Shown one piece after another: positions 6,217-64,000 of a stretch of 64,000 bases of DNA. The notes under the pieces were generated by a model. The model made no database searches. It saw only the letters and a program-made list of their open reading frames with translations, and was not told where the DNA came from. The translations under genes and the position numbers were made by a program. The DNA comes from Pseudomonadota bacterium (GTDB lineage: Bacteria > Myxococcota_A > UBA796 > UBA9615), in contig JAAESI010000010.1 of assembly GCA_024229515.1 (NCBI GenBank), positions 1-64,000 on the forward strand, written 5' to 3'. The first letter of the stretch is position 1. Every line of letters starts with the position of its first letter.

Positions 6217-7140
6217 ATGCACCGCCGGTTGCTCTTGCTGTTCCTCCTGCTCGCAGCGTGCGCCGACCCATCGGAACCGCCGGGTTTCAGCGAGGGCGAT
6301 GACGACGACACCGTCGCAGGTGACGACGATGACAGCACGCCTCCGGCCGACGACGACGACCTCGCCGACGCGCTGGAGATCGCCGGCAGCCTCGGCCTGT
6401 GGTGCTGGGCCTACCCGGACGATGACTGGGTCGCGGTCACCCGCTGCCGGTTCGACGCGAGCTTCCGCGCGCTCCTGGAGGAGGGGACCCCCGGCGCCGG
6501 CGGCGGCGGCGTGTCGATGAACACCCCCGACGGGGTGGACGACTGCGCCATCACCGTCTGGGATGCGGCCGATCTCGAGGGTGGAGGCGGCGGCACGCCG
6601 GCCCACTACGACGATCTGTCCGCCGGGAGCCTGACCCTCGCGGCGTCCGACTGGTCCGTCGATCTGGAGCCGGAGGACGACGGCGCCGGCTCGGTGACCT
6701 ACTCCCTGGAGCTGGGGGGTGGCTCCCCTCCCCGGTTCGACGCCGCCTACAGCCTCGCCGCCGCGGGGGAGCAGTTCCCCGCCTTCACGGCTGCCGACGC
6801 CATCTGGGTGCCTCAGGCGCTGCTGCTGCAGGAGCCCGCCCCCACCGCCGCGTTCGCCATCGACGGATCCCTGGAGATCGCCTGGACCGGGGGCAGCGAA
6901 GAGACGCTCTGGTTGGAGCTCCACAACGAGACGACGCTGACCACCGGGAACGCGCAGATCACCTGCAGCGTCGCCAACGACGGCGCCTTCGAGATCCCCG
7001 CCGAGCTGACCGCCCAGCTCCCCCCCGACGCGCTGCGCCTCGTGCTCGGTCAGCCGGTGAGCGGCTGGTTCGAAGCGGGTGGGTACCGGGTGGACGTCGG
7101 CTCCACCGCGACGGTGGAGACGCGCGGCCACGGCGGCTGA
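6217..7140 (+). CDS. Hypothetical lipoprotein with Asp-rich N-terminal region
   Basis: MHRRLLLLFLLLAAC lipobox signal; acidic DDDD tracts; no recognizable domain. Confidence 0.5.
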   Translation: MHRRLLLLFLLLAACADPSEPPGFSEGDDDDTVAGDDDDSTPPADDDDLADALEIAGSLGLWCWAYPDDDWVAVTRCRFDASFRALLEEGTPGAGGGGVSMNTPDGVDDCAITVWDAADLEGGGGGTPAHYDDLSAGSLTLAASDWSVDLEPEDDGAGSVTYSLELGGGSPPRFDAAYSLAAAGEQFPAFTAADAIWVPQALLLQEPAPTAAFAIDGSLEIAWTGGSEETLWLELHNETTLTTGNAQITCSVANDGAFEIPAELTAQLPPDALRLVLGQPVSGWFEAGGYRVDVGSTATVETRGHGG

Positions 7141-7732: not shown

Positions 7733-7757
7733 GCATTCCGTAGCTTTGCTCTGTTCA

Positions 7758-7860
7758 TTCTTCACCACGGAGGACACGGAGGGGGGCACGGAGGGGGGGG
7801 GCTGGGCCGCTCCTCCGTGCCCCTCCGTGAATTCCCCCGTGTCCTCCGTGGTGAGAAGAA
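7758..7860. terminator. GC-rich nested inverted repeat (long hairpin) between convergent genes
   Basis: caccacggaggacacgg (7763-7779) pairs with ccgtgtcctccgtggtg (7838-7854). Inner cacggagg / cctccgtg copies. Sits between the yjgA stop and the stop of the convergent 7882-8367 gene. Confidence 0.5.
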
Positions 7861-28341: not shown

Positions 28342-28769
28342 ACGACTCCAAGCTCCCCGAGGGACAGGCGCTTGCGCCACTGTCCGCCGGGTCCCCGGCC
28401 GTGCGCGCCGCCGCCGACCTGGCCAACCGCCCCAGCGATGGACCGCTGGTGCTGACCACCGACGAGGTCCCCGCGGGGTACCGCGTCGTCCGCACGGTCG
28501 GCCTCGTGCGTGGCAACACCATCCGAGCCCGACACGTCGGCAAGGACATCATGGCGGCCTTCCGCACCCTCGTCGGCGGCGAGATCACCGAGTACACCAA
28601 GCTCATGGCCGAGAGCCGCGAGCAGGCGGTCGACCGCATGCGAGCCGAGTGTGTCGCGCGCGGGGGGAACGCAGTGCTCGCCGCGCGCATGACGACCTCG
28701 ACGGTGATGGGCGGCGCGGCGGAGATCCTCGCCTACGGCACCGCCGTCGTTGTCGAGCCCGAGGGCTAG
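28338..28769 (+). CDS. ybjQ: YbjQ/UPF0145 (DUF74) family protein
   Basis: GYRVVRTVGLVRGNTIRARHVGKDIMAAFRTLVGGEITEYTKLMAESREQAVDRM...VLAYGTAVVVE matches the YbjQ family; translationally coupled to anti-sigma gene. Confidence 0.8.
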   Translation: MNDSKLPEGQALAPLSAGSPAVRAAADLANRPSDGPLVLTTDEVPAGYRVVRTVGLVRGNTIRARHVGKDIMAAFRTLVGGEITEYTKLMAESREQAVDRMRAECVARGGNAVLAARMTTSTVMGGAAEILAYGTAVVVEPEG

Positions 28770-30220
28770 TCCTTCGTCTGCACGGTCTGGCCGGGGGCGA
28801 TCAAGGGCGCCTCCTGCTCGGCGAGCCAGAACGCCGTCAGGGTCATCGCGGCGACGTTCCGCTTGAACACCTGGGGGTCGATCTTGTCGATGGTGTCGGC
28901 CTCGGTGTGGTGGATCGGCCAGTAGCCGGAGGTGTCGAGGTCGAGGCCCAGGCCGACCACGCCACGCTTGGTCAGGGGCCACACATCCGCCCCCGCGCCG
29001 CCCTTGCGCAGGCCGACCGCGCCGGTGGGGGCGAGTGCCTCCAGCAGCGGGGCGAGGTGCTCGGCGGCGGCGTCCCAGTTGGCCGCCACGGCGTCGTCGT
29101 CGGCGCCCGCGCGCACGTCCAGGCGCCAGCCCAGGGGTTCACCCGATCCGATGTCCGCTTCCAGCGCCGCGTAGTGCTGGCCGATGGACGCCTCGTGGGC
29201 CTCGGCGTAGCCCTTGCCGCCGCGCAGGCCGTTCTCCTCGTTGGTGTAGAGCACCACCCGGACGGTGCGCCGGGGGGCGATGGCGAGCTCGCCGATGAGG
29301 CGCCCCGCCTCCATCGCCATGACGCAGCCGGCGCCGTCGTCCTGGGCGCCCTGGCCCACGTCCCAGCTGTCGAGGTGGCAGCCGACCACGACGACCTCGT
29401 CGGGCCGCTCGCGCCCGACCACCTCGGCGACGACGTTGGCCGACGGAACGTCCTCGTGGGTCTCCGCGGCCATGGAGAGGCGCAGCCGCACGACCACACC
29501 GCGGTCGGCGAGCCGGTGGATCGTCGCGGCGTCTTCGATGGTGATCGCCGCGTGGGGAATCCGGGGGGCGGGGAGGTCATCGGTGCCGTAGTGCATCGCC
29601 CCGGTGTGGGGCGTCTGCAGGCTCTCGGGCGTGACCGATCGGATCAGGGACGCGACGGCCCCCACCGTGGCGGCTTCGTGCGCGCCCCGGCCGCGGTACT
29701 GCACGGTCTCGCCGTAGGTGGTGAAGGGCACATCGAAGAGCACGATCTTGTCCTCCGCCTCGGCGGCGCGAGCGGTCAGCTCGTCGAATGAGGAGACGAC
29801 CAGCACGTCCGCCTCGATCGGCCCGTTCGGCGTGCCCACCGAGCCACCGAGCCCGAGCATCGGCAGATCCCGCTCGATCGGCGCGAGCATCGTCACCGAC
29901 TCCTCCCCGCGCACCCACCGGGGCACGAGGATCTCCTCGGTGTGCACGTTCTCCAGGCCGTCCTCGGTCAGCCGGTCCACGGCCCAGGCGATGGCGGCGT
30001 CCAGCTGCGGTGAGCCGGAGATGCGGTGCCCGATCCGGTCGCAGAGGTAGATGAGGTCCTCCCACGCCCGCTCGGTCGACAGCGCCCGGCCCAGCAGCAG
30101 AGGCATGGACTCGGCGAGGTAGGCATCCGAATCGACGGCCTTGGCCCGGCGGCGGGCTTCGGCCGCGGTCACGGGGACAAAGAGGACGAGGAGGAGGAGG
30201 AAGACGGTCGCGCGGCGCAT
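28766..30220 (-). CDS. M28-family secreted aminopeptidase
   Basis: Signal peptide MRRATVFLLLLVLFVPVTAAEA; M28 zinc ligands (HLDSWDVGQGAQDDGAG, NEENGLRGG, HHTEADT); shares CTAG stop with convergent ybjQ. Confidence 0.8.
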   Translation of the reverse strand: MRRATVFLLLLVLFVPVTAAEARRRAKAVDSDAYLAESMPLLLGRALSTERAWEDLIYLCDRIGHRISGSPQLDAAIAWAVDRLTEDGLENVHTEEILVPRWVRGEESVTMLAPIERDLPMLGLGGSVGTPNGPIEADVLVVSSFDELTARAAEAEDKIVLFDVPFTTYGETVQYRGRGAHEAATVGAVASLIRSVTPESLQTPHTGAMHYGTDDLPAPRIPHAAITIEDAATIHRLADRGVVVRLRLSMAAETHEDVPSANVVAEVVGRERPDEVVVVGCHLDSWDVGQGAQDDGAGCVMAMEAGRLIGELAIAPRRTVRVVLYTNEENGLRGGKGYAEAHEASIGQHYAALEADIGSGEPLGWRLDVRAGADDDAVAANWDAAAEHLAPLLEALAPTGAVGLRKGGAGADVWPLTKRGVVGLGLDLDTSGYWPIHHTEADTIDKIDPQVFKRNVAAMTLTAFWLAEQEAPLIAPGQTVQTKD

Positions 30221-30336
30221 GGTGGCGGAGGGTAACGCAAGGCGTAGCAACGCCGCGCAGCGACGGAGGCGCGTAGTCCCAAGGACGACGATGCAAGGCG
30301 CTCCGCGCCGAGAGGCGAAGCCCTCGAGAGCGCGTC

Positions 30337-30659
30337 CAGCGCCGCGCAGCGCCCCGAGGGGCGCGTAGTCGCCGAGGAAGCCCCGGGAGCTCGCGGAATG
30401 AGCAGATCCGCGACGTTTAAGCGGCTGCCCGACTTTGTACATCTCGGCTGCAACAGCCTTCCACTCCGAACCCGGTCGAAGCTCCAAGCGGTGCCCGCGC
30501 ATCGCTTGGAGTGCCCGGTGGTTCGGCGTGGCAGAGCATTGGCAGCGGGGGTGTACAACGGCCGGCAGCCGCTTAAACGTGGCTTGTGATCTCGGCCGCC
30601 TGACGATCCACGGAGCTTCCTTGGCGACTACGCGCGCTTGGGCGCGCTACGCGGCGCTG
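30337..30659. repeat. ~320-bp imperfect palindrome (foldback element) with perfect 17-bp inner arms
   Basis: Left half 30337-30495 aligns along its whole length with the reverse complement of 30500-30659. Perfect inner arms ACGTTTAAGCGGCTGCC (30414-30430 / 30564-30580). Outer arms cagcgccgcg[c/t]agcgc...gcgcgtagtcgcc. Centre ctccaagcg-gtgcccgcgcat-cgcttggag. Confidence 0.6.
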
Positions 30660-31803
30660 ATGCGTCTTGCTCCACCGCCGCGAGAGCCTCCGCGTGGACC
30701 GCCCACAGCGCCTCCATCACACGGGCGCCCACGGGCGTGAGCTCGCCCCGGTCCTGCACGATCGCCAGCGACTCGGCGTTCGTCTGAAGCACCTCCGCGC
30801 GCCGGCGCGCGAACTGCGGGGTTCGGCTCAACAGGTGGTCCTTTTCGCCCAACGCCTGGTGCAGCGCGGCCACCGGCACGAACGCGTGAGCGGCGAGCAG
30901 CACCCCCATGATCGGCCGCAGATCCGGACGCACCGGGGACGGCGACCACTCGGTGTGCCCATTGTTCAGCACCGGATCGAGCCACGTCAGGAGGTTCAGC
31001 TTGCCGTGCTGGGTCTCGTGCACGATCGCTTCGGCCAGCGTCAGCGGATCGGGGTGCAGCGTCAGGTAGATGAGGCCCGGCGCCTCCCGGTACGACGCGC
31101 TGAGGTGCCGCTCGGGCTCGTACCCCACCGGCACCACGCGCAGGAGCGTGACCTCCAACTCGGCGTACAGATCAGGCAGTACGGCCTCGATTACGGCCAA
31201 TGCGTCGTTCAGCGCCTCGACCCATTCGGCGGCGTCCCGGCCCCCGAGGTCGAGGACGTTTCCCTGCTTGTCGGGGTGGGCCTCCACGTTCGCGAGCGGG
31301 TTGGTGTCGACAAGGCCCAGTTCCCCACGGACAAGGGGGCGCGAGGGCGTCAGCGCATCCAGATCTCCCAGCGCCAGGTGCCGGCCGGTCGAAAGCTCGA
31401 CGCCCACGCCGTCGCGATCGGCGACCACGGCGCGCAACGGCTCTGCGAATCGGTGGAACCCGGAGCTTCGAACCTCGGTGGTGGGCCCCCGCCACGACAA
31501 GCCGGCGTCCAGGTGAGGGGCGAGCGCCGCGAGCAGGTGGGGCACGCCCCGACGGAGACCGTCGCGCGCGGGCAGCGCGCCCGAAGCCGAGGCCAACAAC
31601 GGCACCAGAGCATCCAGGGTGCCGACGGCGTCCAGCAGCGCCTCGGGCCGGGTCCTCAGCAGCTTCGTCAGCGCGGTCTGCAGCCGAACCAGGTCCGGGA
31701 GCCCCGACGCACGGACCGACAGCAGGTGCCGCAGCGCCACCATGCGCACCTTGCGTCGCAGCCGAACGGCAACGGTGTCGCCGGGGGAAGGGAGGACCAG
31801 CAC
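30628..31803 (-). CDS. HEXXH-motif domain protein (aKG-HExxH-type peptide hydroxylase-like)
   Basis: LAEAIVHETQHGKLNLL (H-E-x-x-H); ~390 aa; divergent from a radical-SAM gene array, an association recorded for the TIGR04267-like HEXXH domain. Confidence 0.55.
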   Translation of the reverse strand: MLVLPSPGDTVAVRLRRKVRMVALRHLLSVRASGLPDLVRLQTALTKLLRTRPEALLDAVGTLDALVPLLASASGALPARDGLRRGVPHLLAALAPHLDAGLSWRGPTTEVRSSGFHRFAEPLRAVVADRDGVGVELSTGRHLALGDLDALTPSRPLVRGELGLVDTNPLANVEAHPDKQGNVLDLGGRDAAEWVEALNDALAVIEAVLPDLYAELEVTLLRVVPVGYEPERHLSASYREAPGLIYLTLHPDPLTLAEAIVHETQHGKLNLLTWLDPVLNNGHTEWSPSPVRPDLRPIMGVLLAAHAFVPVAALHQALGEKDHLLSRTPQFARRRAEVLQTNAESLAIVQDRGELTPVGARVMEALWAVHAEALAAVEQDASAPRSAPKRA

Positions 31804-31825
31804 CAGCGTCGTCTACCATGCCGCC

Positions 31826-32974
31826 GTGCTCGCCCCTTTGTCCGATGAGGTCTGGATCGACGTGACCGGCGCCCAACGCGCGGAGAACGCCCAACGCATC
31901 GTTGCCTTCGGCACCCCCCGCCCGGCCCTCGCCGATCTCGTGCGCCAGGCCCGCGAAGCCGACGGCACGCCGGTCCTGGGGGGAGGCGAGCCGACCCTGG
32001 GAAGCGACCTGCCCGACCTCGTCGCCGCGGTCAGCGAGGCGATCGGAAGCCAATGGGTGCTCGCCACCGACGGCCTCGCGCTGACCCAGCCGGGTCCCCT
32101 CGCCTCCCTCGCCCAGCGCGGTCTGACCACCCTCCGGGTGAGGCTCGTTTCGGCCCGGCCGGACGCCCACGACTGGTTCTACGGGCGCCCCGGAGCGACG
32201 AAGGCAGCCGTGCGCGCTCTCCGCACCGCCGCCGCCGCGGGCATCACGACGCAGATCGAAGTGCCGCTCATCCGCCCGACGGTAGACCACCTCGCCGAGA
32301 CCCTGGAGGTCGCCGCGCGCGTGAGCGCCTCCGCGGTGCTCGCCGTGCACTACGACCCCGGCCGGTTCCCCCGGGACGAGCAGGTGACCCTGACGCCGCG
32401 CCTCGGCCTGCTGGAGCAGCCGCTGACCGACACGGCGGCTGCCGCCCTGCGCCTCGGAGTCACCTTCGCGGTGGCGGACCTGCCCCAGTGCTTCCTCCCC
32501 GAAGGCGTCGCCGCCTGCCGTGTGCGCCAGAGCCGACCGACCCCGGCTGCCCCCTGCGGCCCGGACTGCCCGGGCGCCCCGACCTGCGTCGGCGTGCCGG
32601 AGGTCTACCGGTCGCTGTTCGGAAGCTCGGAGCTGCCCGCCGGCCCGCCGACCGACCTCGCAGAAGACGACTTCTCCGGGACGAGCCGCCAGATCCGCAT
32701 GCGCCTCGTCCGCCACGGCGAGCACGCGACCCACCTGCGGGTCACCGCGATCGACCACCCCGACGCTGCGGCCCTGCTCCGCGAGGCGCTCCGGCTGGGC
32801 TTCGCCCGCGTCGAGGTCGCCGCCGATCTCGCCCCCCTGGCGGCCTTCTCCGACGACGAACTGCACCGCCTTCGTCGACTCACGGCCTTGCGTCCGACCG
32901 GCCCCGTGCCGCCCGACCTGAGGGAGCGAATCGGCCGAATCGCTCCCCAGGTGGAGCTAGGGTCGACCTCATGA
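31826..32974 (+). CDS. Radical-SAM-fold paralogue lacking the CxxxCxxC triad (retains C-terminal Cys cluster)
   Basis: VLGGGEPTLGSDL (GGEP SAM-motif), SARPDAHDWFYGRPGATKAAVRAL parallels the SLHG..ELHD..G.PG(A/S)F motif of neighbouring rSAMs. No Cys in the first ~250 aa. C-terminal CFLPEGVAAC...CGPDCPGAPTC. GTG start inferred; translationally coupled (ATGA) to the next rSAM. Confidence 0.5.
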   Translation: MLAPLSDEVWIDVTGAQRAENAQRIVAFGTPRPALADLVRQAREADGTPVLGGGEPTLGSDLPDLVAAVSEAIGSQWVLATDGLALTQPGPLASLAQRGLTTLRVRLVSARPDAHDWFYGRPGATKAAVRALRTAAAAGITTQIEVPLIRPTVDHLAETLEVAARVSASAVLAVHYDPGRFPRDEQVTLTPRLGLLEQPLTDTAAAALRLGVTFAVADLPQCFLPEGVAACRVRQSRPTPAAPCGPDCPGAPTCVGVPEVYRSLFGSSELPAGPPTDLAEDDFSGTSRQIRMRLVRHGEHATHLRVTAIDHPDAAALLREALRLGFARVEVAADLAPLAAFSDDELHRLRRLTALRPTGPVPPDLRERIGRIAPQVELGSTS

Positions 32975-34716
32975 GCCGGCCTTTGCAGGAGGACATGCTC
33001 GAGCGGGAGCGGGTGGCCAACCGCGCCAAGCACTGGGTGCGGGCGGTGACGGCCTGCAACAGCCGGTGCCTGTTCTGCCTCGACAGCGACACGCCCCGGA
33101 ACCTCTTCCTGCCCGCCGAGGACGTCAAAGCCGACCTGCGCCGCGGCATCGAGGACAAAGGGGCGGACAAGGTGATCCTCAGCGGAGGGGAAGCCTCCCT
33201 GCACCCGGAGTTCCTCGACTTCATCCGCTACGGCAGGGAGATCGGCTACGACCGCGTGCAGACCGTGACCAACGGCTGGATGCTCGCCCAGGCAGACTTC
33301 TACGAAGAGGCGGTCCAGGCCGGGCTCGGCGAGATCACGTGGAGCCTGCACGGGCACACCGCCGAGCTGCACGACCACCTCACGGGCACCCCCGGCGCCT
33401 TCGACCGGATGGTCGCGGGCATCCGCCGCGCCGAGGCCGACCCGCGGATCATCAGCAACGTCGACGTGGTCATCAACAAGCAGAACGTGGGCGTGCTGGA
33501 CAAGGTCGTGGAGCTGGCGATGTCCCTGGGGGTGACCGAGTTCGACCTCCTGCACGTCATCCCCCAGGCGGCTGCGTTCGAGCATCGCGACGACCTGTTC
33601 TACGACCCCGCCGAGCACCTCGACGTGCTCCACAAGGTGTTCCGGCTGAACCGGCACCCGGGCTTCGTGATCTGGACGAACCGGTTCCCTGTGCCCTTCT
33701 TGGAGGGGCTCGAGGACCTGATCCAGGACCCCCACAAGATGCTCGATGAGGTGCACGGCCGCCGCTTTCAGGTGCGTCGCTACCTGGACGTCGGGCAGGG
33801 GTTGGACTGCCGTCAGCCGGAGCGCTGCGTGCACTGCTTCATCGAGCCCTTCTGCACGAGCACCGATCGCACGCTCGACCGAATCCATGCCGCCGGCTGG
33901 GAGGTCTGGTTCGGGGACGGTCCCCTCCCCTTCGGCGCGACCCGGCGAGGAGTGGCGGCCCCCTCGACGGACGCGCTGCCGGACGAGCGGCCGCTGTACG
34001 CCGAGGTCGAGGGCGTGGGGCCGGTGCCCGAAGGCGACGTCGTGCTCCGCGCCGAACGGGCCGAGCAGCTGGAGGCATGGGCGGGCTCGGTCGACCTGGA
34101 CGTGCAGCTGAACCGCGACACGGTGCCGTGGCTGCTGACGAACCGGGACCGGCTGGAACGCATGCGCATCCACCAGCCGTCGTGGTCTTCCCTGGAGCAG
34201 GCCGCCGCGCACGACGTGCGGGACCCGGCGCGGTTCTTCCTGCAGCTGGACCGCCCGATTCCGACCTCGGGCCTCGCGGCCTGCCAGGCGCCCGGGGCGA
34301 CGCTGGTGGAGCCTCGACCGATCCTGCGGTCGTCGCTGTTCGACGCGGGCACGGGGCGGCCGTCGGTGCCGGCCCTGGCCGAGGATCACGTCGCCGACGG
34401 CTACCGCGTCCACTCGCTCCGGTGCCGGACCTGCCGGGTGCGTGACCGCTGCGACGGCATTCACGTGAACATGGTTCGCGACCAGGGCCTGAAGCTGGCC
34501 CGCCCGCTGGTGGCGGGGGCCTGGCCCGACGAGGCGGACCGCCAGCTCACGAAGGCAGTCGCGCGCGTGAGGGACGGCCGGGAGCGGGTGCCGGTGGTGC
34601 CGTCGCTACCCGGCCACGACGCTCCGGCGGCGCCCCCGGAGGACCCCTTGGCGGTCCTGGCCCGGGACAAGGCGGAGCAGCGAGCGAAGCGCCGCCTCCA
34701 AATCCTGGACTCCTGA
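32971..34716 (+). CDS. Radical SAM protein (SPASM/twitch-like C-terminal Cys cluster), 581 aa
   Basis: CNSRCLFC triad, GGEASLHPEF, SLHGHTAELHDHLTGTPGAFDRMVAGI, C-terminal CRQPERCVHCFIEPFC; long extra C-terminal domain. Confidence 0.75.
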   Translation: MSRPLQEDMLERERVANRAKHWVRAVTACNSRCLFCLDSDTPRNLFLPAEDVKADLRRGIEDKGADKVILSGGEASLHPEFLDFIRYGREIGYDRVQTVTNGWMLAQADFYEEAVQAGLGEITWSLHGHTAELHDHLTGTPGAFDRMVAGIRRAEADPRIISNVDVVINKQNVGVLDKVVELAMSLGVTEFDLLHVIPQAAAFEHRDDLFYDPAEHLDVLHKVFRLNRHPGFVIWTNRFPVPFLEGLEDLIQDPHKMLDEVHGRRFQVRRYLDVGQGLDCRQPERCVHCFIEPFCTSTDRTLDRIHAAGWEVWFGDGPLPFGATRRGVAAPSTDALPDERPLYAEVEGVGPVPEGDVVLRAERAEQLEAWAGSVDLDVQLNRDTVPWLLTNRDRLERMRIHQPSWSSLEQAAAHDVRDPARFFLQLDRPIPTSGLAACQAPGATLVEPRPILRSSLFDAGTGRPSVPALAEDHVADGYRVHSLRCRTCRVRDRCDGIHVNMVRDQGLKLARPLVAGAWPDEADRQLTKAVARVRDGRERVPVVPSLPGHDAPAAPPEDPLAVLARDKAEQRAKRRLQILDS

Positions 34717-62257: not shown

Positions 62258-62275
62258 AGGACGTCCTCTAGACCC

Positions 62276-63665
62276 AATGCCGGTCACTTAGGCCCATCGC
62301 GGGTCCTAGTTCCTCGATTTCGGGGGTAGTTGCTCATCTTGATCTTGACGTGCCGGGGGTACCTCCTGTGGCTCCGCCGCGGTGGGATGATGAGGCTGCT
62401 GAGGGTCATGCGGAGGTCCGCGAGGTGTCGCGGCACACGGCCCGGCGCGCCCCAGGCTGTGATGAGCCAGAAGTCTCGGCACGTGAGGACGGCGGTGCGG
62501 AAGCTGACTCGGGTGGGCGGCAGGCCGTGCTCGAGGGCGACAAGGAGCATCTCGCGGCGGACGAGGTTGTAGACGAGCAGCAGTCCCCACAGCTCCTGGA
62601 TGACGTTGTTCGGAGAGAGGCTCCGAAGGCACTCCACCCGCTCGAACATGTGGGTCTTGAGTTCGTCGTATCCGACCTCCAGCTCCCACCGCTCGTGATA
62701 GAGCCCGACCAGCGCGAGGGCGGGGTACAGCTCCCAGTCGGTCAATGTGACGAAGAGGCGTGACGCCGTCCCGCCCTCGTGTTGGTAGTGGACGATGCGT
62801 CCCTGGATGAAGTCGGGGAGATTGTCGTGCTTGCGTCGCGCCTCCTTGGACGGCCGCATTCGTGCCAGCGCGCTCCCATCGGGCAGCAGCTTGACGTCGG
62901 TGAACTTCTGGTCGGCGCGGAGCCGGATCATGACGTTCCGTTCGCGCTCTTCGCTGCCGACGACCTCAGCGAGCAGTGCGTAGCTGATGAAGCCCCGGTC
63001 CAAGACGGTGACGCTCGCGTCGGGGATGTTTGAGATCATCTCCCGCGCCAGGCTCTGTTCGGACGTGCCAAACGGCCCGAACCGAGCGTCCGCCAACAGC
63101 CGGCTGCGGAGATTCAGCAGAACCGCGATCCGGGCCTGGGGATAGCCGGCATCCCCGCTGCCACCGCGGCCGCCCGGCTTCCCGAAGAACTCGAAGTCTC
63201 GTCGGAGTCCTGGACGCGGAGGTGGCTGCCGTCGATCCCGTACAGCTCCAGTCCGTGGAAGGTAGGCAGCCCCGGCACGCTCGAATAGGCCTCCGCAATC
63301 TTGCGGAACAGCCACTCCATCGGCTCGGCACCGAGCCGCGCGCGGGGCGAGCGACTCGACGCCCGGTGCGACCAGATTCAGGTGCTCGACGACGTTGACG
63401 ATGGAACGGTCCCGGAACAGCGCCATGCCAACGATGAGCCAAACAAGCATGTCCGCCGGGAGCTTCCGCCGACGGATCGAGGCCTTCCCGGTGTGCGCCA
63501 GCGCCTGCTCGATCCACGAGGGATCAATCGACGCCTCGAACCGTGCGAGGCCTCGCGGACCCATCGCCGCCAAGTCGTCCAGGATCTCGGAGAACTGCTC
63601 CAAGGCCTGAGTATGATCATCAGGCTCCGTTCCGGATACCCCGATCGCTTAACTGATCGGCATTG
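62276..63665 (-). mobile_element. IS4-family insertion sequence (~1390 bp) with imperfect terminal IRs and 11-bp target-site duplication
   Basis: IR-L aatgccggtcacttaggcccatcgcggg vs IR-R (revcomp) caatgccgatcagttaagcgatcgggg. Flanking direct repeat cctctagaccc at 62265-62275 and 63666-63676. Encodes an IS4-type transposase. Confidence 0.7.
62284..63603 (-). pseudogene. IS4-family DDE transposase, interrupted by two frameshifts
   Basis: N-terminus ARFEASIDPSWIEQALAHTGKASIRRRKLPADMLVWLIVGMALFRDRSI (IS4/IS231-like). The conserved middle (MEWLFRKIAEAYSSVPGLPTFHGLELYGIDGSHLRVQDSDE) lies in a different frame (63114-63320). The C-terminal DDE region returns to the first frame. Confidence 0.65.
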
Positions 63666-63668
63666 CCT

Positions 63669-64000
63669 CTAGACCCGACGGCGGCGGAGCGCTCCGGCGC
63701 TGAGCAGGAACAGGCCGAGGGCCGCTTCGGTGGGGGCTTCGGTCTCGTCGCCGCCGCAGTCGCAGCCGTCGTCGCGGCGGATCGGCAGGATGGCGGAGTC
63801 GTCGTCGTCGAACGCCACGTCATCGTCGTCCGTGGCGTCGTCGTCGTCCGTGGCGTCGTCGTCGTCCGTGGCGTCGTCGTCGTCCGTCGCATCGTCGTCG
63901 TCGCCGGTGGTCTCGTCCTCGCCGTCGCAGTCTTGGTCGATGCCGTCATCGGCGATCTCGGGGGCGCCGGGGTAGCGGTCCTCGTCGGTGTCGTCGCAGT
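63669..64000 (-). CDS. Partial gene (C-terminal end only) with DDDDAT repeats and a MYXO-CTERM-type tail
   Basis: Minus-strand translation ...DDDDATDDDDATDDDDAT...DGCDCGGDETEAPTEAALGLFLLSAGALRRRRV*. Stop TAG (63669-63671) lies inside the IS target-site duplication. The gene runs off the window end. Confidence 0.55.
   Translation of the reverse strand, partial: CDDTDEDRYPGAPEIADDGIDQDCDGEDETTGDDDDATDDDDATDDDDATDDDDATDDDDVAFDDDDSAILPIRRDDGCDCGGDETEAPTEAALGLFLLSAGALRRRRV
63821..63900. repeat. 15-bp tandem repeat (cgtcgtcgtccgtgg) x ~5 encoding (DDDDAT)n
   Basis: Direct tandem copies visible 63821-63900 within the partial gene ending in a MYXO-CTERM-type tail. Confidence 0.7.

What the first reader, a model, noticed from the sequence alone, without database searches (positions are those of the whole stretch)
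30337..30659. 320-bp imperfect palindrome between the M28 peptidase and the HEXXH gene
The left half aligns over ~160 nt with the reverse complement of the right half (~75% identity). Inner arms ACGTTTAAGCGGCTGCC are perfect and the central hairpin is short. The right outer arm overlaps the 3' end of the HEXXH gene. This is far longer than a terminator. Candidates are a foldback or MITE-like element, a structured RNA, an old inverted duplication, or a recombination/replication-associated cruciform. Mismatches between the arms are not compensatory, which favours decay of a duplication over RNA-structure selection.
Basis: seen in the sequence. Interest (0 to 1): 0.6.

Follow-up and report, generated by a model that had tools for sequence, protein, structure and literature searches.

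The report
Dispersed palindromic repeat element, inserted copy
The 320-nt palindrome is real. It is the core of a 434-nt non-coding repeat element that was inserted between two genes and has relatives at unrelated sites in other marine bacterial DNA, so it is a new family of an ordinary kind of genomic "junk/regulatory" repeat, not a unique structure.

Summary
The palindrome is confirmed. Window 30337-30659 aligns to its own reverse complement over 334 columns at 74% identity (E=3e-45), and the fold z-score is about -12.

It is not a local inverted duplication. It is the core of a 434-nt insertion (30237-30670). That insertion is absent from the syntenic HEXXH-M28 junction of the three closest relatives, where the gaps are 21 nt, 87 nt, or an unrelated small ORF.

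A metagenome scan found about 10 related copies next to unrelated genes. Full copies are 550-690-nt whole-element palindromes: two inverted ~180-220-nt arms plus a centre of short subrepeats. The window copy and L047 are compact forms that lack the centre, with the arms fused at a shared apex hairpin.

Each arm resembles arms at other loci (up to 90%) more than its own partner (65-75%). No target-site duplications and no coding capacity were found. The outer 55 nt is a REP-like module: GC hairpins with a compensatory stem change, followed by an invariant GTAG. That GTAG supplies the HEXXH stop codon.

Best reading: an undescribed REP/REPIN/BIME-like mosaic repeat family, probably mobilised in trans as single-stranded hairpin DNA. 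The mobilisation mechanism is inferred. There was no Rfam hit and only weak covariation for an RNA gene. Interest is moderate to low.

The parts
30237..30670 (.). Whole inserted non-coding element (434 nt), with termini GCAAGGCG... and ...CGTCTTGC in inverted orientation
   Evidence: This stretch is extra DNA relative to the syntenic loci L008, L010 and L005. The termini are shared with family copies.
30237..30292 (+). Extra short outer unit: REP-like solo module (hp1, hp2, GTAG) in tandem with the left arm
   Evidence: Pattern match at 30251-30278. L072 and L108 have the same 'short unit + arm' layout.
30293..30336 (+). Left-arm head GCAAGGCGCTC plus an optional hairpin module containing GGCGAAGCC
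   Evidence: The same module is present in L047_R, L072_L, L072_R and L113_L, and absent from the other arms.
30337..30506 (+). Left arm core (mid module type b, inner module type Y)
   Evidence: nhmmer E=8e-41 to the unit profile. Module typing.
30487..30670 (-). Right arm (mid module type a, inner module type X), the best-conserved unit of the family
   Evidence: nhmmer E=1e-52. 89.7% identical to L058 13011-13194.
30482..30511 (.). Apex hairpin AGCGGTGC-CCGC-GCATCGCT shared by both arms. It is the junction left by loss of the central segment seen in full-length copies.
   Evidence: I16. In full copies each arm ends in its own copy of this hairpin, with 180-330 nt between them.
30413..30429 (+). 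Perfect 17-mer ACGTTTAAGCGGCTGCC (left copy). AGCGGCTGCC is invariant in all 13 aligned units.
30564..30580 (-). Perfect 17-mer ACGTTTAAGCGGCTGCC (right copy)
30349..30368 (+). Left-arm hp2 (GCGCCCC-GA-GGGGCGC) followed by GTAG
30628..30647 (-). Right-arm hp2 (GCGCGC-CCAA-GCGCGC) followed by GTAG. Its TAG is the stop codon of the HEXXH gene.
30628..31743 (-). Flanking gene: aKG-HExxH-type peptide beta-hydroxylase. Its last ~14 codons (QDASAPRSAPKRA*) are encoded by the element.
   Evidence: TIGR04267, 100.9 bits. C-terminal comparison with L008, L010 and L005.
28766..30220 (-). Flanking gene: M28 peptidase with a signal peptide. Its ATG lies 16 nt beyond the element end.
   Evidence: PF04389, E=7e-28.

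Best explanation
Window 30237-30670 is one copy of a non-coding, dispersed, hairpin-rich repeat family of the REP/REPIN/BIME type. It inserted at the stop codon of the HEXXH gene, just upstream of the M28 peptidase gene.

**Family architecture.** Members are built from two inverted arms of ~180-220 nt. Each arm starts with a REP-like module: GCAAGRCG, a small hairpin, then a 6-7-bp GC hairpin followed by GTAG. The arm continues through conserved inner modules (CCAAGGAAGC, a mid hairpin of type a or b, ACGTTTAAGCGGCTGCC, an inner segment X, Y or Z). It ends in the hairpin AGCGGTGC-N4-GCACCGCT. Full copies carry 180-330 nt of GGATGCCGC/GCGGCATCC subrepeats between the arms.

**The window copy.** It is a compact derivative. 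The centre has been lost between the two end-hairpins, which are palindromic and therefore also direct repeats of each other. This leaves a 320-nt near-palindrome.

**Shown:** insertion polymorphism, dispersal to unrelated loci, modular/mosaic arms, no target-site duplication, no ORF, and covarying hp2 stems with an invariant GTAG.

**Inferred (about 0.35-0.4 on its own):** copies are mobilised in trans as folded single-stranded DNA by a HUH/Y1 (RAYT-like) enzyme that recognises hairpin plus GTAG.

**Inferred consequences here:**
- A 13-residue foreign tail and a new stop codon on the HEXXH protein.
- A very stable hairpin in any HEXXH read-through transcript, which could block 3' exonucleases or be cut by RNase III and so uncouple HEXXH from M28 expression.
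- The arms being unlike each other (a heterodimer), which probably helps such a long palindrome survive hairpin nucleases.
For: **Insertion.** Synteny is conserved (rSAM, HEXXH, M28, YbjQ, sigma-70, Fpg) in L008, L010 and L005. The HEXXH-M28 gap is 21 nt in L008, 87 nt in L010 and an unrelated 94-aa ORF in L005, against 407 nt in the window.

**Family.** The metagenome scan gave 89 loci, of which about 10 share 55-690 nt of similarity. Flanking genes are unrelated: A24 peptidase, DUF1838, acyl-CoA dehydrogenase, M23 peptidase, epimerase/ParB.

**Arms.** Each arm is closer to arms elsewhere than to its own partner. L/R lineages are inherited together: L047~L072 and L093~L113.

**Variants.** Full, compact, truncated (L092) and solo-unit forms all exist.

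**No TSD** in 7 copies.

**REP-like module.** The hp2 stem is 97% paired, with GC:6/CG:5 at one pair and 0/500 shuffles reaching that value. GTAG is invariant in those 11 variants. Published REP definitions are in PMC3733652 and PMC8266576.

**Location.** Copies sit right after stop codons, mostly between co-directional or convergent genes.

**Assembly breaks.** Contigs of other assemblies end inside the element: L002 at 30595, L003 at 30433, and L033.
Against: - Copy number within any single genome is unknown. There is only one copy in this 64-kb window.
- No RAYT/Y1 gene was found in about 190 kb of held sequence. This was a weak test, using only E. coli RayT as a probe.
- Canonical REPs have GTAG 5' of the palindrome. 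Here the invariant GTAG is 3' of hp2, and only a degenerate GYAG lies 5'.
- The element is 4-7 times longer than typical REPINs/BIMEs, and most of the conserved sequence (the inner ~130 nt per arm) has no REP counterpart.
- Only one filled/empty comparison exists, and it is between diverged species, so the exact junction and the absence of a TSD are not proven at nucleotide resolution.
- The family was not seen in 185,579 species-representative genomes by the 17-mer, so it is rare, unlike classic REPs.
Confidence: 0.72

Rival explanations
1. A classical MITE: an internally deleted derivative of a DDE-transposase insertion sequence. The long arms would be its terminal inverted repeats, bound and cut by a transposase supplied in trans.
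For: - Inverted termini GCAAGRCG/CGYCTTGC and conserved arms.
- Insertion polymorphism.
- Small size and no ORF.
- An active-looking IS4-family element exists in the same window.
Against: - No target-site duplication in 7 copies.
- The IS4 element's 27-nt TIRs (TCTAGAsCCAATGCCG...) are unrelated to the element's ends.
- No copy in hand carries a transposase.
- Solo 55-nt units and tandem outer units are REP/BIME-like rather than MITE-like.
Confidence: 0.13
2. A functional structured RNA or cis-regulatory RNA element, with the hairpin(s) themselves as the selected feature. Examples would be a bidirectional terminator/attenuator, an RNase III processing site, or a convergent sRNA pair.
For: - Extremely stable folds for all copies, -0.56 to -0.81 kcal/mol/nt.
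- Position inside a likely operon, directly after a stop codon.
- Some compensatory pairs: 15 of 211 in full copies, and hp2.
- The GC hairpin at each arm's inner end could act as a U-less terminator.
Against: - No Rfam match even at E<=10.
- The single-arm consensus structure is weak, with 1 compensatory pair of 28.
- The net covariation term for the whole-element fold is unfavourable, +16.7.
- There is no consistent strand preference in energy or G-U pairs.
- L047's arms are only 55% alike.
- No promoter-like or terminator-like sites were found.
- Conservation is mostly of primary sequence.
Confidence: 0.1
3. An invertible DNA switch: the perfect inverted 17-mers are recombination sites that flip the 134-nt inner segment.
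For: - The 17-mers are perfect, and AGCGGCTGCC is invariant family-wide.
- Relative to L047 and L072 (arm b-X, arm a-Y), the window copy has the inner segments swapped (b-Y, a-X), as an inversion between the 17-mers would give.
Against: - No recombinase gene is adjacent in the window or in other copies.
- The flipped segment is itself nearly palindromic and has no promoter-like site.
- Only one orientation is seen in the independent assemblies.
- Ordinary recombination or template switching between palindrome arms explains a one-off swap.
Confidence: 0.03
4. A local inverted duplication that is decaying in place, or an assembly artefact.
For: The arms are only about 74% complementary, with non-compensatory mismatches.
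Against: - The arms have closer relatives at other loci than each other.
- The whole block is absent from orthologous sites.
- An identical sequence is found in separate assemblies.
Confidence: 0.02

Closest known systems
GTAG-tagged REP dimers / REPINs (mobilised by RAYT = TnpA_REP)
   Same: - Short GC-rich hairpins with alternative complementary stem residues and an adjacent conserved GTAG.
- Units paired in inverted orientation that can fold into one large hairpin.
- The partners are unlike each other (heterodimers).
- Solo units also occur.
- Extragenic position just downstream of ORFs, and no target-site duplication.
   Different: - The whole element is 380-690 nt, against about 50-150 nt.
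- The 'spacer' between the REP-like modules is 250-560 nt, conserved and itself palindromic.
- The invariant GTAG lies 3' of the hairpin, with only a degenerate GYAG 5' of it.
- No RAYT has been identified.
- Abundance appears low, and the family is confined to one uncultured marine lineage.
BIMEs (bacterial interspersed mosaic elements) and Neisseria/Stenotrophomonas mosaic intergenic repeats
   Same: - Modular, mosaic combinations of a few motif types (heads with or without the GCGAAGC module, mid a/b, inner X/Y/Z) in alternating orientation.
- Tandem outer units.
   Different: The modules are unrelated in sequence and much longer. Each copy is a single symmetrical foldback rather than an array.
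Bacterial MITEs such as Correia/CREE or IS630-derived elements
   Same: Non-coding insertions with inverted ends. They are found in intergenic regions, can be co-transcribed, and can alter neighbouring gene expression or add codons.
   Different: Those have short TIRs (about 20-30 nt), a defined TSD (e.g. TA), and a recognisable parent IS. None of these is seen here.
Eukaryotic Foldback (FB) transposons
   Same: Architecture: very long inverted arms made of subrepeats, a variable or absent middle segment, and whole-element hairpin potential.
   Different: Those are eukaryotic, kilobase-scale, with TSDs. There is no evolutionary link. The resemblance is in form only.
Rickettsia palindromic elements (RPEs)
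   Same: A palindromic repeat that becomes part of a coding sequence. Here it supplies the last ~14 codons and the stop of the HEXXH gene.
   Different: RPEs insert in frame inside genes and are translated through. Here only the 3' end is replaced, and there is no sequence relation.

Membership tests
REP / GTAG-tagged REP superfamily | Short (20-50 nt) GC-rich palindrome forming a 6-13-bp stem with a small loop | tested here: met
   hp2 has a 6-7-bp stem and a 2-4-nt loop in all arms and solos, with 97% of cells paired. hp1 is GRCGC-N4-GCGYC.
REP / GTAG-tagged REP superfamily | Conserved unpaired tetranucleotide (GTAG or a degenerate form) at one end, canonically preceding the palindrome | tested here: inconclusive
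   GTAG is invariant immediately 3' of hp2 in 11 of 11 distinct variants. On the 5' side there is GYAG (mostly GCAG) overlapping the stem by 1 nt. The literature defines it as preceding the palindrome (PMC8266576), and as being 'at one end' and sometimes GYAG (PMC3733652).
REP / GTAG-tagged REP superfamily | Sub-families with alternative complementary stem residues | tested here: met
   Stem position 5 is G-C in 6 variants and C-G in 5. 0 of 500 shuffles reach the observed covariation.
REP / GTAG-tagged REP superfamily | High copy number (tens to thousands) within one genome | not testable with these tools
   Only 64 kb of the source genome is available, with one element in it. Eight related loci come from one metagenome (PVBE01), but they cannot be assigned to one genome.
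REP / GTAG-tagged REP superfamily | Extragenic, mostly downstream of ORFs between co-directional or convergent genes | tested here: met
   The window, L058, L092 and L093 copies are co-directional. L113 is convergent and L072 is divergent. Elements start 0-20 nt after stop codons.
REPIN-RAYT system | A cognate single-copy RAYT (Y1/HUH) gene, usually flanked by the repeats | tested here: inconclusive
   phmmer with E. coli RayT against all ORFs of at least 60 aa in the window and 13 loci (about 190 kb) found nothing below E=0.4. This probe has low sensitivity, and most of the genome is unseen.
REPIN-RAYT system | Two REPs in inverted orientation separated by a short spacer, with the whole about 100 nt | tested here: not met
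   The inverted pairing is present, but the REP-like modules are 250-560 nt apart and elements are 380-690 nt long.
DDE-type MITE | Terminal inverted repeats | tested here: met
   GCAAGRCG...CGYCTTGC termini and long inverted arms in all complete copies.
DDE-type MITE | Target-site duplication flanking the element | tested here: not met
   No shared flank k-mer at the junctions in 7 copies. Caveat: no nucleotide-precise empty site is available.
DDE-type MITE | Parent autonomous IS with the same ends | tested here: not met
   The only IS seen, an IS4-family element at window 62267-63673, has unrelated TIRs. No plasmid match to the element. The rest of the genome is not available.
IS200/IS605-derived palindrome-associated elements | Subterminal hairpins, no TIR, no TSD, and insertion 3' of a fixed tetra/pentanucleotide | tested here: inconclusive
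   Hairpins and the lack of a TSD fit. But clear TIRs exist, and the left flanks vary (..AAC..GAC..GAC..TTT..GGA) with no fixed target.
Known structured RNA family (Rfam 15) | Match to a covariance model | tested here: not met
   No hit at E<=10 in window 29500-31500. Only chance-level hits in four related loci.
Intrinsic terminator | Short GC hairpin followed by a T/U run | tested here: not met
   0 terminator-like sites in 29700-31200. There is no T-run anywhere in the element.
Inverton (invertible promoter switch) | Inverted repeats flanking a promoter-bearing segment, with a site-specific recombinase nearby and both orientations present in the population | tested here: not met
   The inverted 17-mers are present. 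But there is no promoter-like site, no recombinase among neighbours, and only one orientation in the assemblies. Read-level heterogeneity is not testable.

The most novel reading that the evidence does not exclude
These are a previously unrecognised class of bacterial 'foldback' mobile elements. They would be 0.4-0.7-kb whole-element palindromes assembled from REP-like hairpin modules. They would move as single-stranded hairpins without target duplication, rearrange internally (centre loss, inner-segment inversion between invariant 17-mers), and be retained because the hairpin acts on transcripts or replication at the 3' ends of genes.
Probability: 0.15. Interest if true: 0.6.

Novelty: new member of a known kind. 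Interest (0 to 1): 0.35.

Why it matters
**For annotation.** The palindrome should be masked or annotated as a repeat element. It should not be read as a regulatory RNA or a replication feature. The last ~14 codons and the stop codon of the HEXXH peptide hydroxylase are element-derived. The element also breaks metagenome contigs.

**For biology.** It extends REP/REPIN-type repeats to an uncultured, GC-rich marine lineage, and to an unusually large, fully palindromic, modular format. It gives a concrete case (heterodimeric arms, compact versus full forms) for studying how long palindromes persist in bacterial chromosomes. If a cognate HUH enzyme is found, the system would be a useful comparison for RAYT specificity, because here the GTAG is 3' of the hairpin.

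Tried and rejected
- **Genome scan with the 17-mer.** The exact 17-mer was searched in 185,579 species-representative genomes. It gave 19 single, unrelated chance hits. The source species is not in that set, so multicopy status within a genome could not be tested this way.
- **Spurious-ORF search.** A profile of the open reading frame that runs through the arms was searched against 5.8 billion proteins, to find other copies through wrongly called ORFs. There were no hits.
- **Viral contigs and plasmids.** Only chance coding matches, or none.
- **Extending the source contig beyond the window.** Look-ups of edge proteins gave either no record or only short contigs lying inside the window.
- **RAYT search.** A search with E. 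coli RayT found nothing.
- **Single-arm RNA structure.** Weak, so no covariance model was built. nhmmer with --max served for copy finding.
- **Literature look-ups.** Searches for the PVBE01 metagenome and for MITEs in Myxococcota were unhelpful.
- **Rejected readings.** Terminator, derivative of the resident IS4 element, in-place decaying duplication, assembly artefact.

Full report
**Observation.**
The palindrome is real and far beyond chance. Nested inverted repeats cover 30337-30659. The interval aligns to its own reverse complement over 334 columns at 74% identity, E=3e-45. The 17-mer ACGTTTAAGCGGCTGCC occurs exactly twice in 64 kb, in inverted orientation, against 0.05 expected. Folding gives z=-11.9 (+ strand RNA), -9.0 (- strand RNA) and -8.8 (DNA) against dinucleotide shuffles. 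The apex is a 13-bp hairpin with a 4-nt loop. The HEXXH ORF (TIGR04267, aKG-HExxH peptide beta-hydroxylase) ends at 30628, inside the right arm. The M28 peptidase gene starts at 30220 on the same strand. Other assemblies of the same organism carry the identical sequence. A third, partial copy of the outer arm lies at 30237-30292, so the feature is larger than reported.

**It is an insertion.**
The closest HEXXH homologues (73, 69 and 67% identity) lie in the same gene order: rSAM, HEXXH, M28, YbjQ, ECF sigma, Fpg. Between the HEXXH stop and the M28 ATG there are 21 nt in L008, 87 nt in L010 and a 94-aa secreted Cys-rich ORF in L005, against 407 nt in the window. The homologues end ...HAETLA(S/A)V(S)*. 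The window protein continues ...AAVE-QDASAPRSAPKRA*, and these extra codons are the outer end of the right arm. The stop codon TAG is the element's conserved GTAG. On the other side the element ends 2 nt before a TACCCT motif that all four orthologous loci keep 7-8 nt upstream of the M28 ATG. The inserted block is 30237-30670 (434 nt), bounded by GCAAGGCG... and ...CGTCTTGC in inverted orientation.

**It belongs to a dispersed family.**
No other copy is in the window. The 17-mer has no true relative in 185,579 species-representative genomes. A gapped motif shared by the three outer-arm copies (CGCCGCGYAGCG-N6-12-GCGCGTAGTC) found 89 metagenome loci. Most are chance coding matches, but about 10 share long similarity with the element: L033, L034, L047, L058, L072, L089, L092, L093, L108 and L113. 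Eight of these come from one metagenome, PVBE01. Their neighbours are unrelated genes: prepilin peptidase, DUF1838, acyl-CoA dehydrogenase, M23 peptidase, epimerase/ParB-like. No Rfam family matches, no plasmid matches, and there is no true viral match.

**Anatomy of the family.**
- The conserved unit is the half-palindrome, best represented by window 30487-30670 on the - strand.
- Units always occur as an inverted pair with the GCAAG ends outward.
- In L058, L072, L093, L108 and L113 the inner ends are 184-326 nt apart. The centre consists of GGATGCCGC/GCGGCATCC-type subrepeats that are themselves arranged palindromically. Full elements of 550-690 nt therefore fold as a single hairpin with about 200-280 pairs.
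- In the window and in L047 the centre is missing, and the two arms share one apex hairpin. In full copies each arm ends in its own copy of that hairpin (AGCGGTGC-N4-GCACCGCT). Because the hairpin is palindromic, the two copies are also direct repeats, so loss of the centre by slippage or recombination between them is the simplest origin of the compact form (inference).
- L092 is truncated, with one arm plus the centre.
- 55-nt solo outer units occur in L034, L058 and L089, and as tandem extra units in the window, L072 and L108.

**The arms are not a decaying local duplicate.**
In the 13-unit alignment every arm is closer to an arm at another locus than to its partner: win_R/L058_L 90% and win_L/L047_R 82%, against win_L/win_R 65% (75% by local alignment). 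L047's arms are only 55% alike. Left and right arm lineages travel together (L047~L072, L093~L113), so the whole element is the unit of inheritance. The arms are mosaics:
- heads with or without a GGCGAAGCC hairpin module;
- mid hairpin type a or b;
- inner segment X, Y or Z.

L047 and L072 pair b-X with a-Y. The window pairs b-Y with a-X, as if the inner segment between the invariant inverted 17-mers had flipped. I read this as a past recombination between arms, not as evidence for a switch. No recombinase, no promoter-like site and no alternative orientation were seen.

**REP-like outer module.**
The outer ~55 nt of each arm reads: GCAAGRCGC-N4-GCGYC (hp1), GCG-YAG, a 6-7-bp GC stem with a 2-4-nt loop (hp2), then an invariant GTAG. 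Across 11 distinct hp2 variants, 97% of cells pair. One stem position alternates G-C (6) and C-G (5), with 0 of 500 shuffles matching this. hp1 shows A-T/G-C alternation.

This matches published descriptions of GTAG-tagged REPs:
- 6-13-bp stems, short loops, alternative complementary stem residues;
- inverted dimers that fold into larger hairpins, frequent heterodimers;
- location downstream of ORFs (PMC3733652).

The canonical definition, however, places GTAG before the palindrome (PMC8266576). Here the invariant GTAG follows it, and only GYAG precedes it. No target-site duplication is visible in seven copies, which fits HUH/Y1-type single-strand mobilisation better than a DDE transposase. 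The IS4-family element in the window (62267-63673) has unrelated ends. A weak search for a RAYT found none.

**RNA hypothesis.**
- A single arm has only a weak consensus fold, with 1 compensatory pair of 28.
- The whole-element fold has 15 of 211 pairs with double changes but a net unfavourable covariation term.
- Neither strand is consistently favoured.
- There are no promoter-like or terminator-like sites.

Conservation is mostly of primary sequence (AGCGGCTGCC, CCAAGGAAGC, GCGCGTAG and the end hairpin are invariant). An RNA-level effect is still likely as a by-product. HEXXH and M28 are 21 nt apart in L008, so read-through transcripts in this organism would contain a ~160-bp imperfect hairpin. 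REP-type hairpins of this kind are hypothesised to affect mRNA stability and termination and to be cut by specific endoribonucleases (PMC3733652). By inference the element could be a 3'-exonuclease block or an RNase III substrate.

**Verdict.**
- The 'foldback/MITE-like' option is supported, and the 'decaying duplication' option is not.
- The element is a new, apparently undescribed and narrowly distributed family of a known kind: REP/REPIN/BIME-like extragenic palindromic repeats.
- It is notable for its size, whole-element symmetry and modularity.
- The mobilisation mechanism and within-genome abundance remain inferred.

Noticed in passing
window 62267-63673: An IS4-family insertion sequence. 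The transposase ORF is at 62284-63603(-) with Nterm_IS4 and DDE_Tnp_1 domains. It is bounded by 27-nt inverted repeats TCTAGAsCCAATGCCG... that are unrelated to the palindrome's ends.
   Followed up: partly
window 7757-7858: A second, unrelated ~100-nt palindrome (35-nt arms, 86% complementary, 23-nt loop) built from CACGGAGG subrepeats. It lies about 25 nt after a TGA stop codon. It may be another repeat family or a terminator-like hairpin.
   Followed up: partly
window 30229-30234 (- strand TACCCT); L008 about 2258-2263; L010 about 2441-2446; L005 about 6435-6440: A TAnnnT hexamer is conserved 7-8 nt upstream of the M28 peptidase ATG in all four orthologous loci, with no Shine-Dalgarno sequence. 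This looks like the -10 box of a leaderless-mRNA promoter. The inserted element ends 2 nt from it and would have displaced any -35 region.
   Followed up: no
L005 6123-6407: In a relative, the same HEXXH-M28 intergenic site holds a 94-aa ORF with a signal-peptide-like N-terminus and several Cys residues instead of the palindrome. This junction is therefore a variable spot.
   Followed up: no
L092 3487-3510: Two perfect DnaA-box nonamers (TTATCCACA) 2 nt apart lie about 10 nt outside an element copy and upstream of a ParB-N-domain gene. This may be an origin-proximal or DnaA-regulated region.
   Followed up: no
L093 2100-2310 vs L108 2398-2608: These two loci share a nearly identical outer right arm plus 27 nt of right flank. 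Their left flanks and flanking proteins are unrelated, and the rest of the element is only about 78% identical. This points to recombination between copies or an assembly chimera at the repeat.
   Followed up: partly
L002 (contig end = window 30595), L003 (contig end = window 30433), L033 (contig end inside the L058-type element): Contigs from other assemblies end inside the element, as expected for a repeated or hairpin-forming sequence. This is a practical hazard for binning and assembly.
   Followed up: partly
window 30628-34716: The HEXXH gene (aKG-HExxH peptide beta-hydroxylase domain) is divergently transcribed from two radical-SAM genes with HxsC-like similarity. This looks like a RiPP-type peptide-modification cluster. 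No precursor peptide was identified.
   Followed up: no
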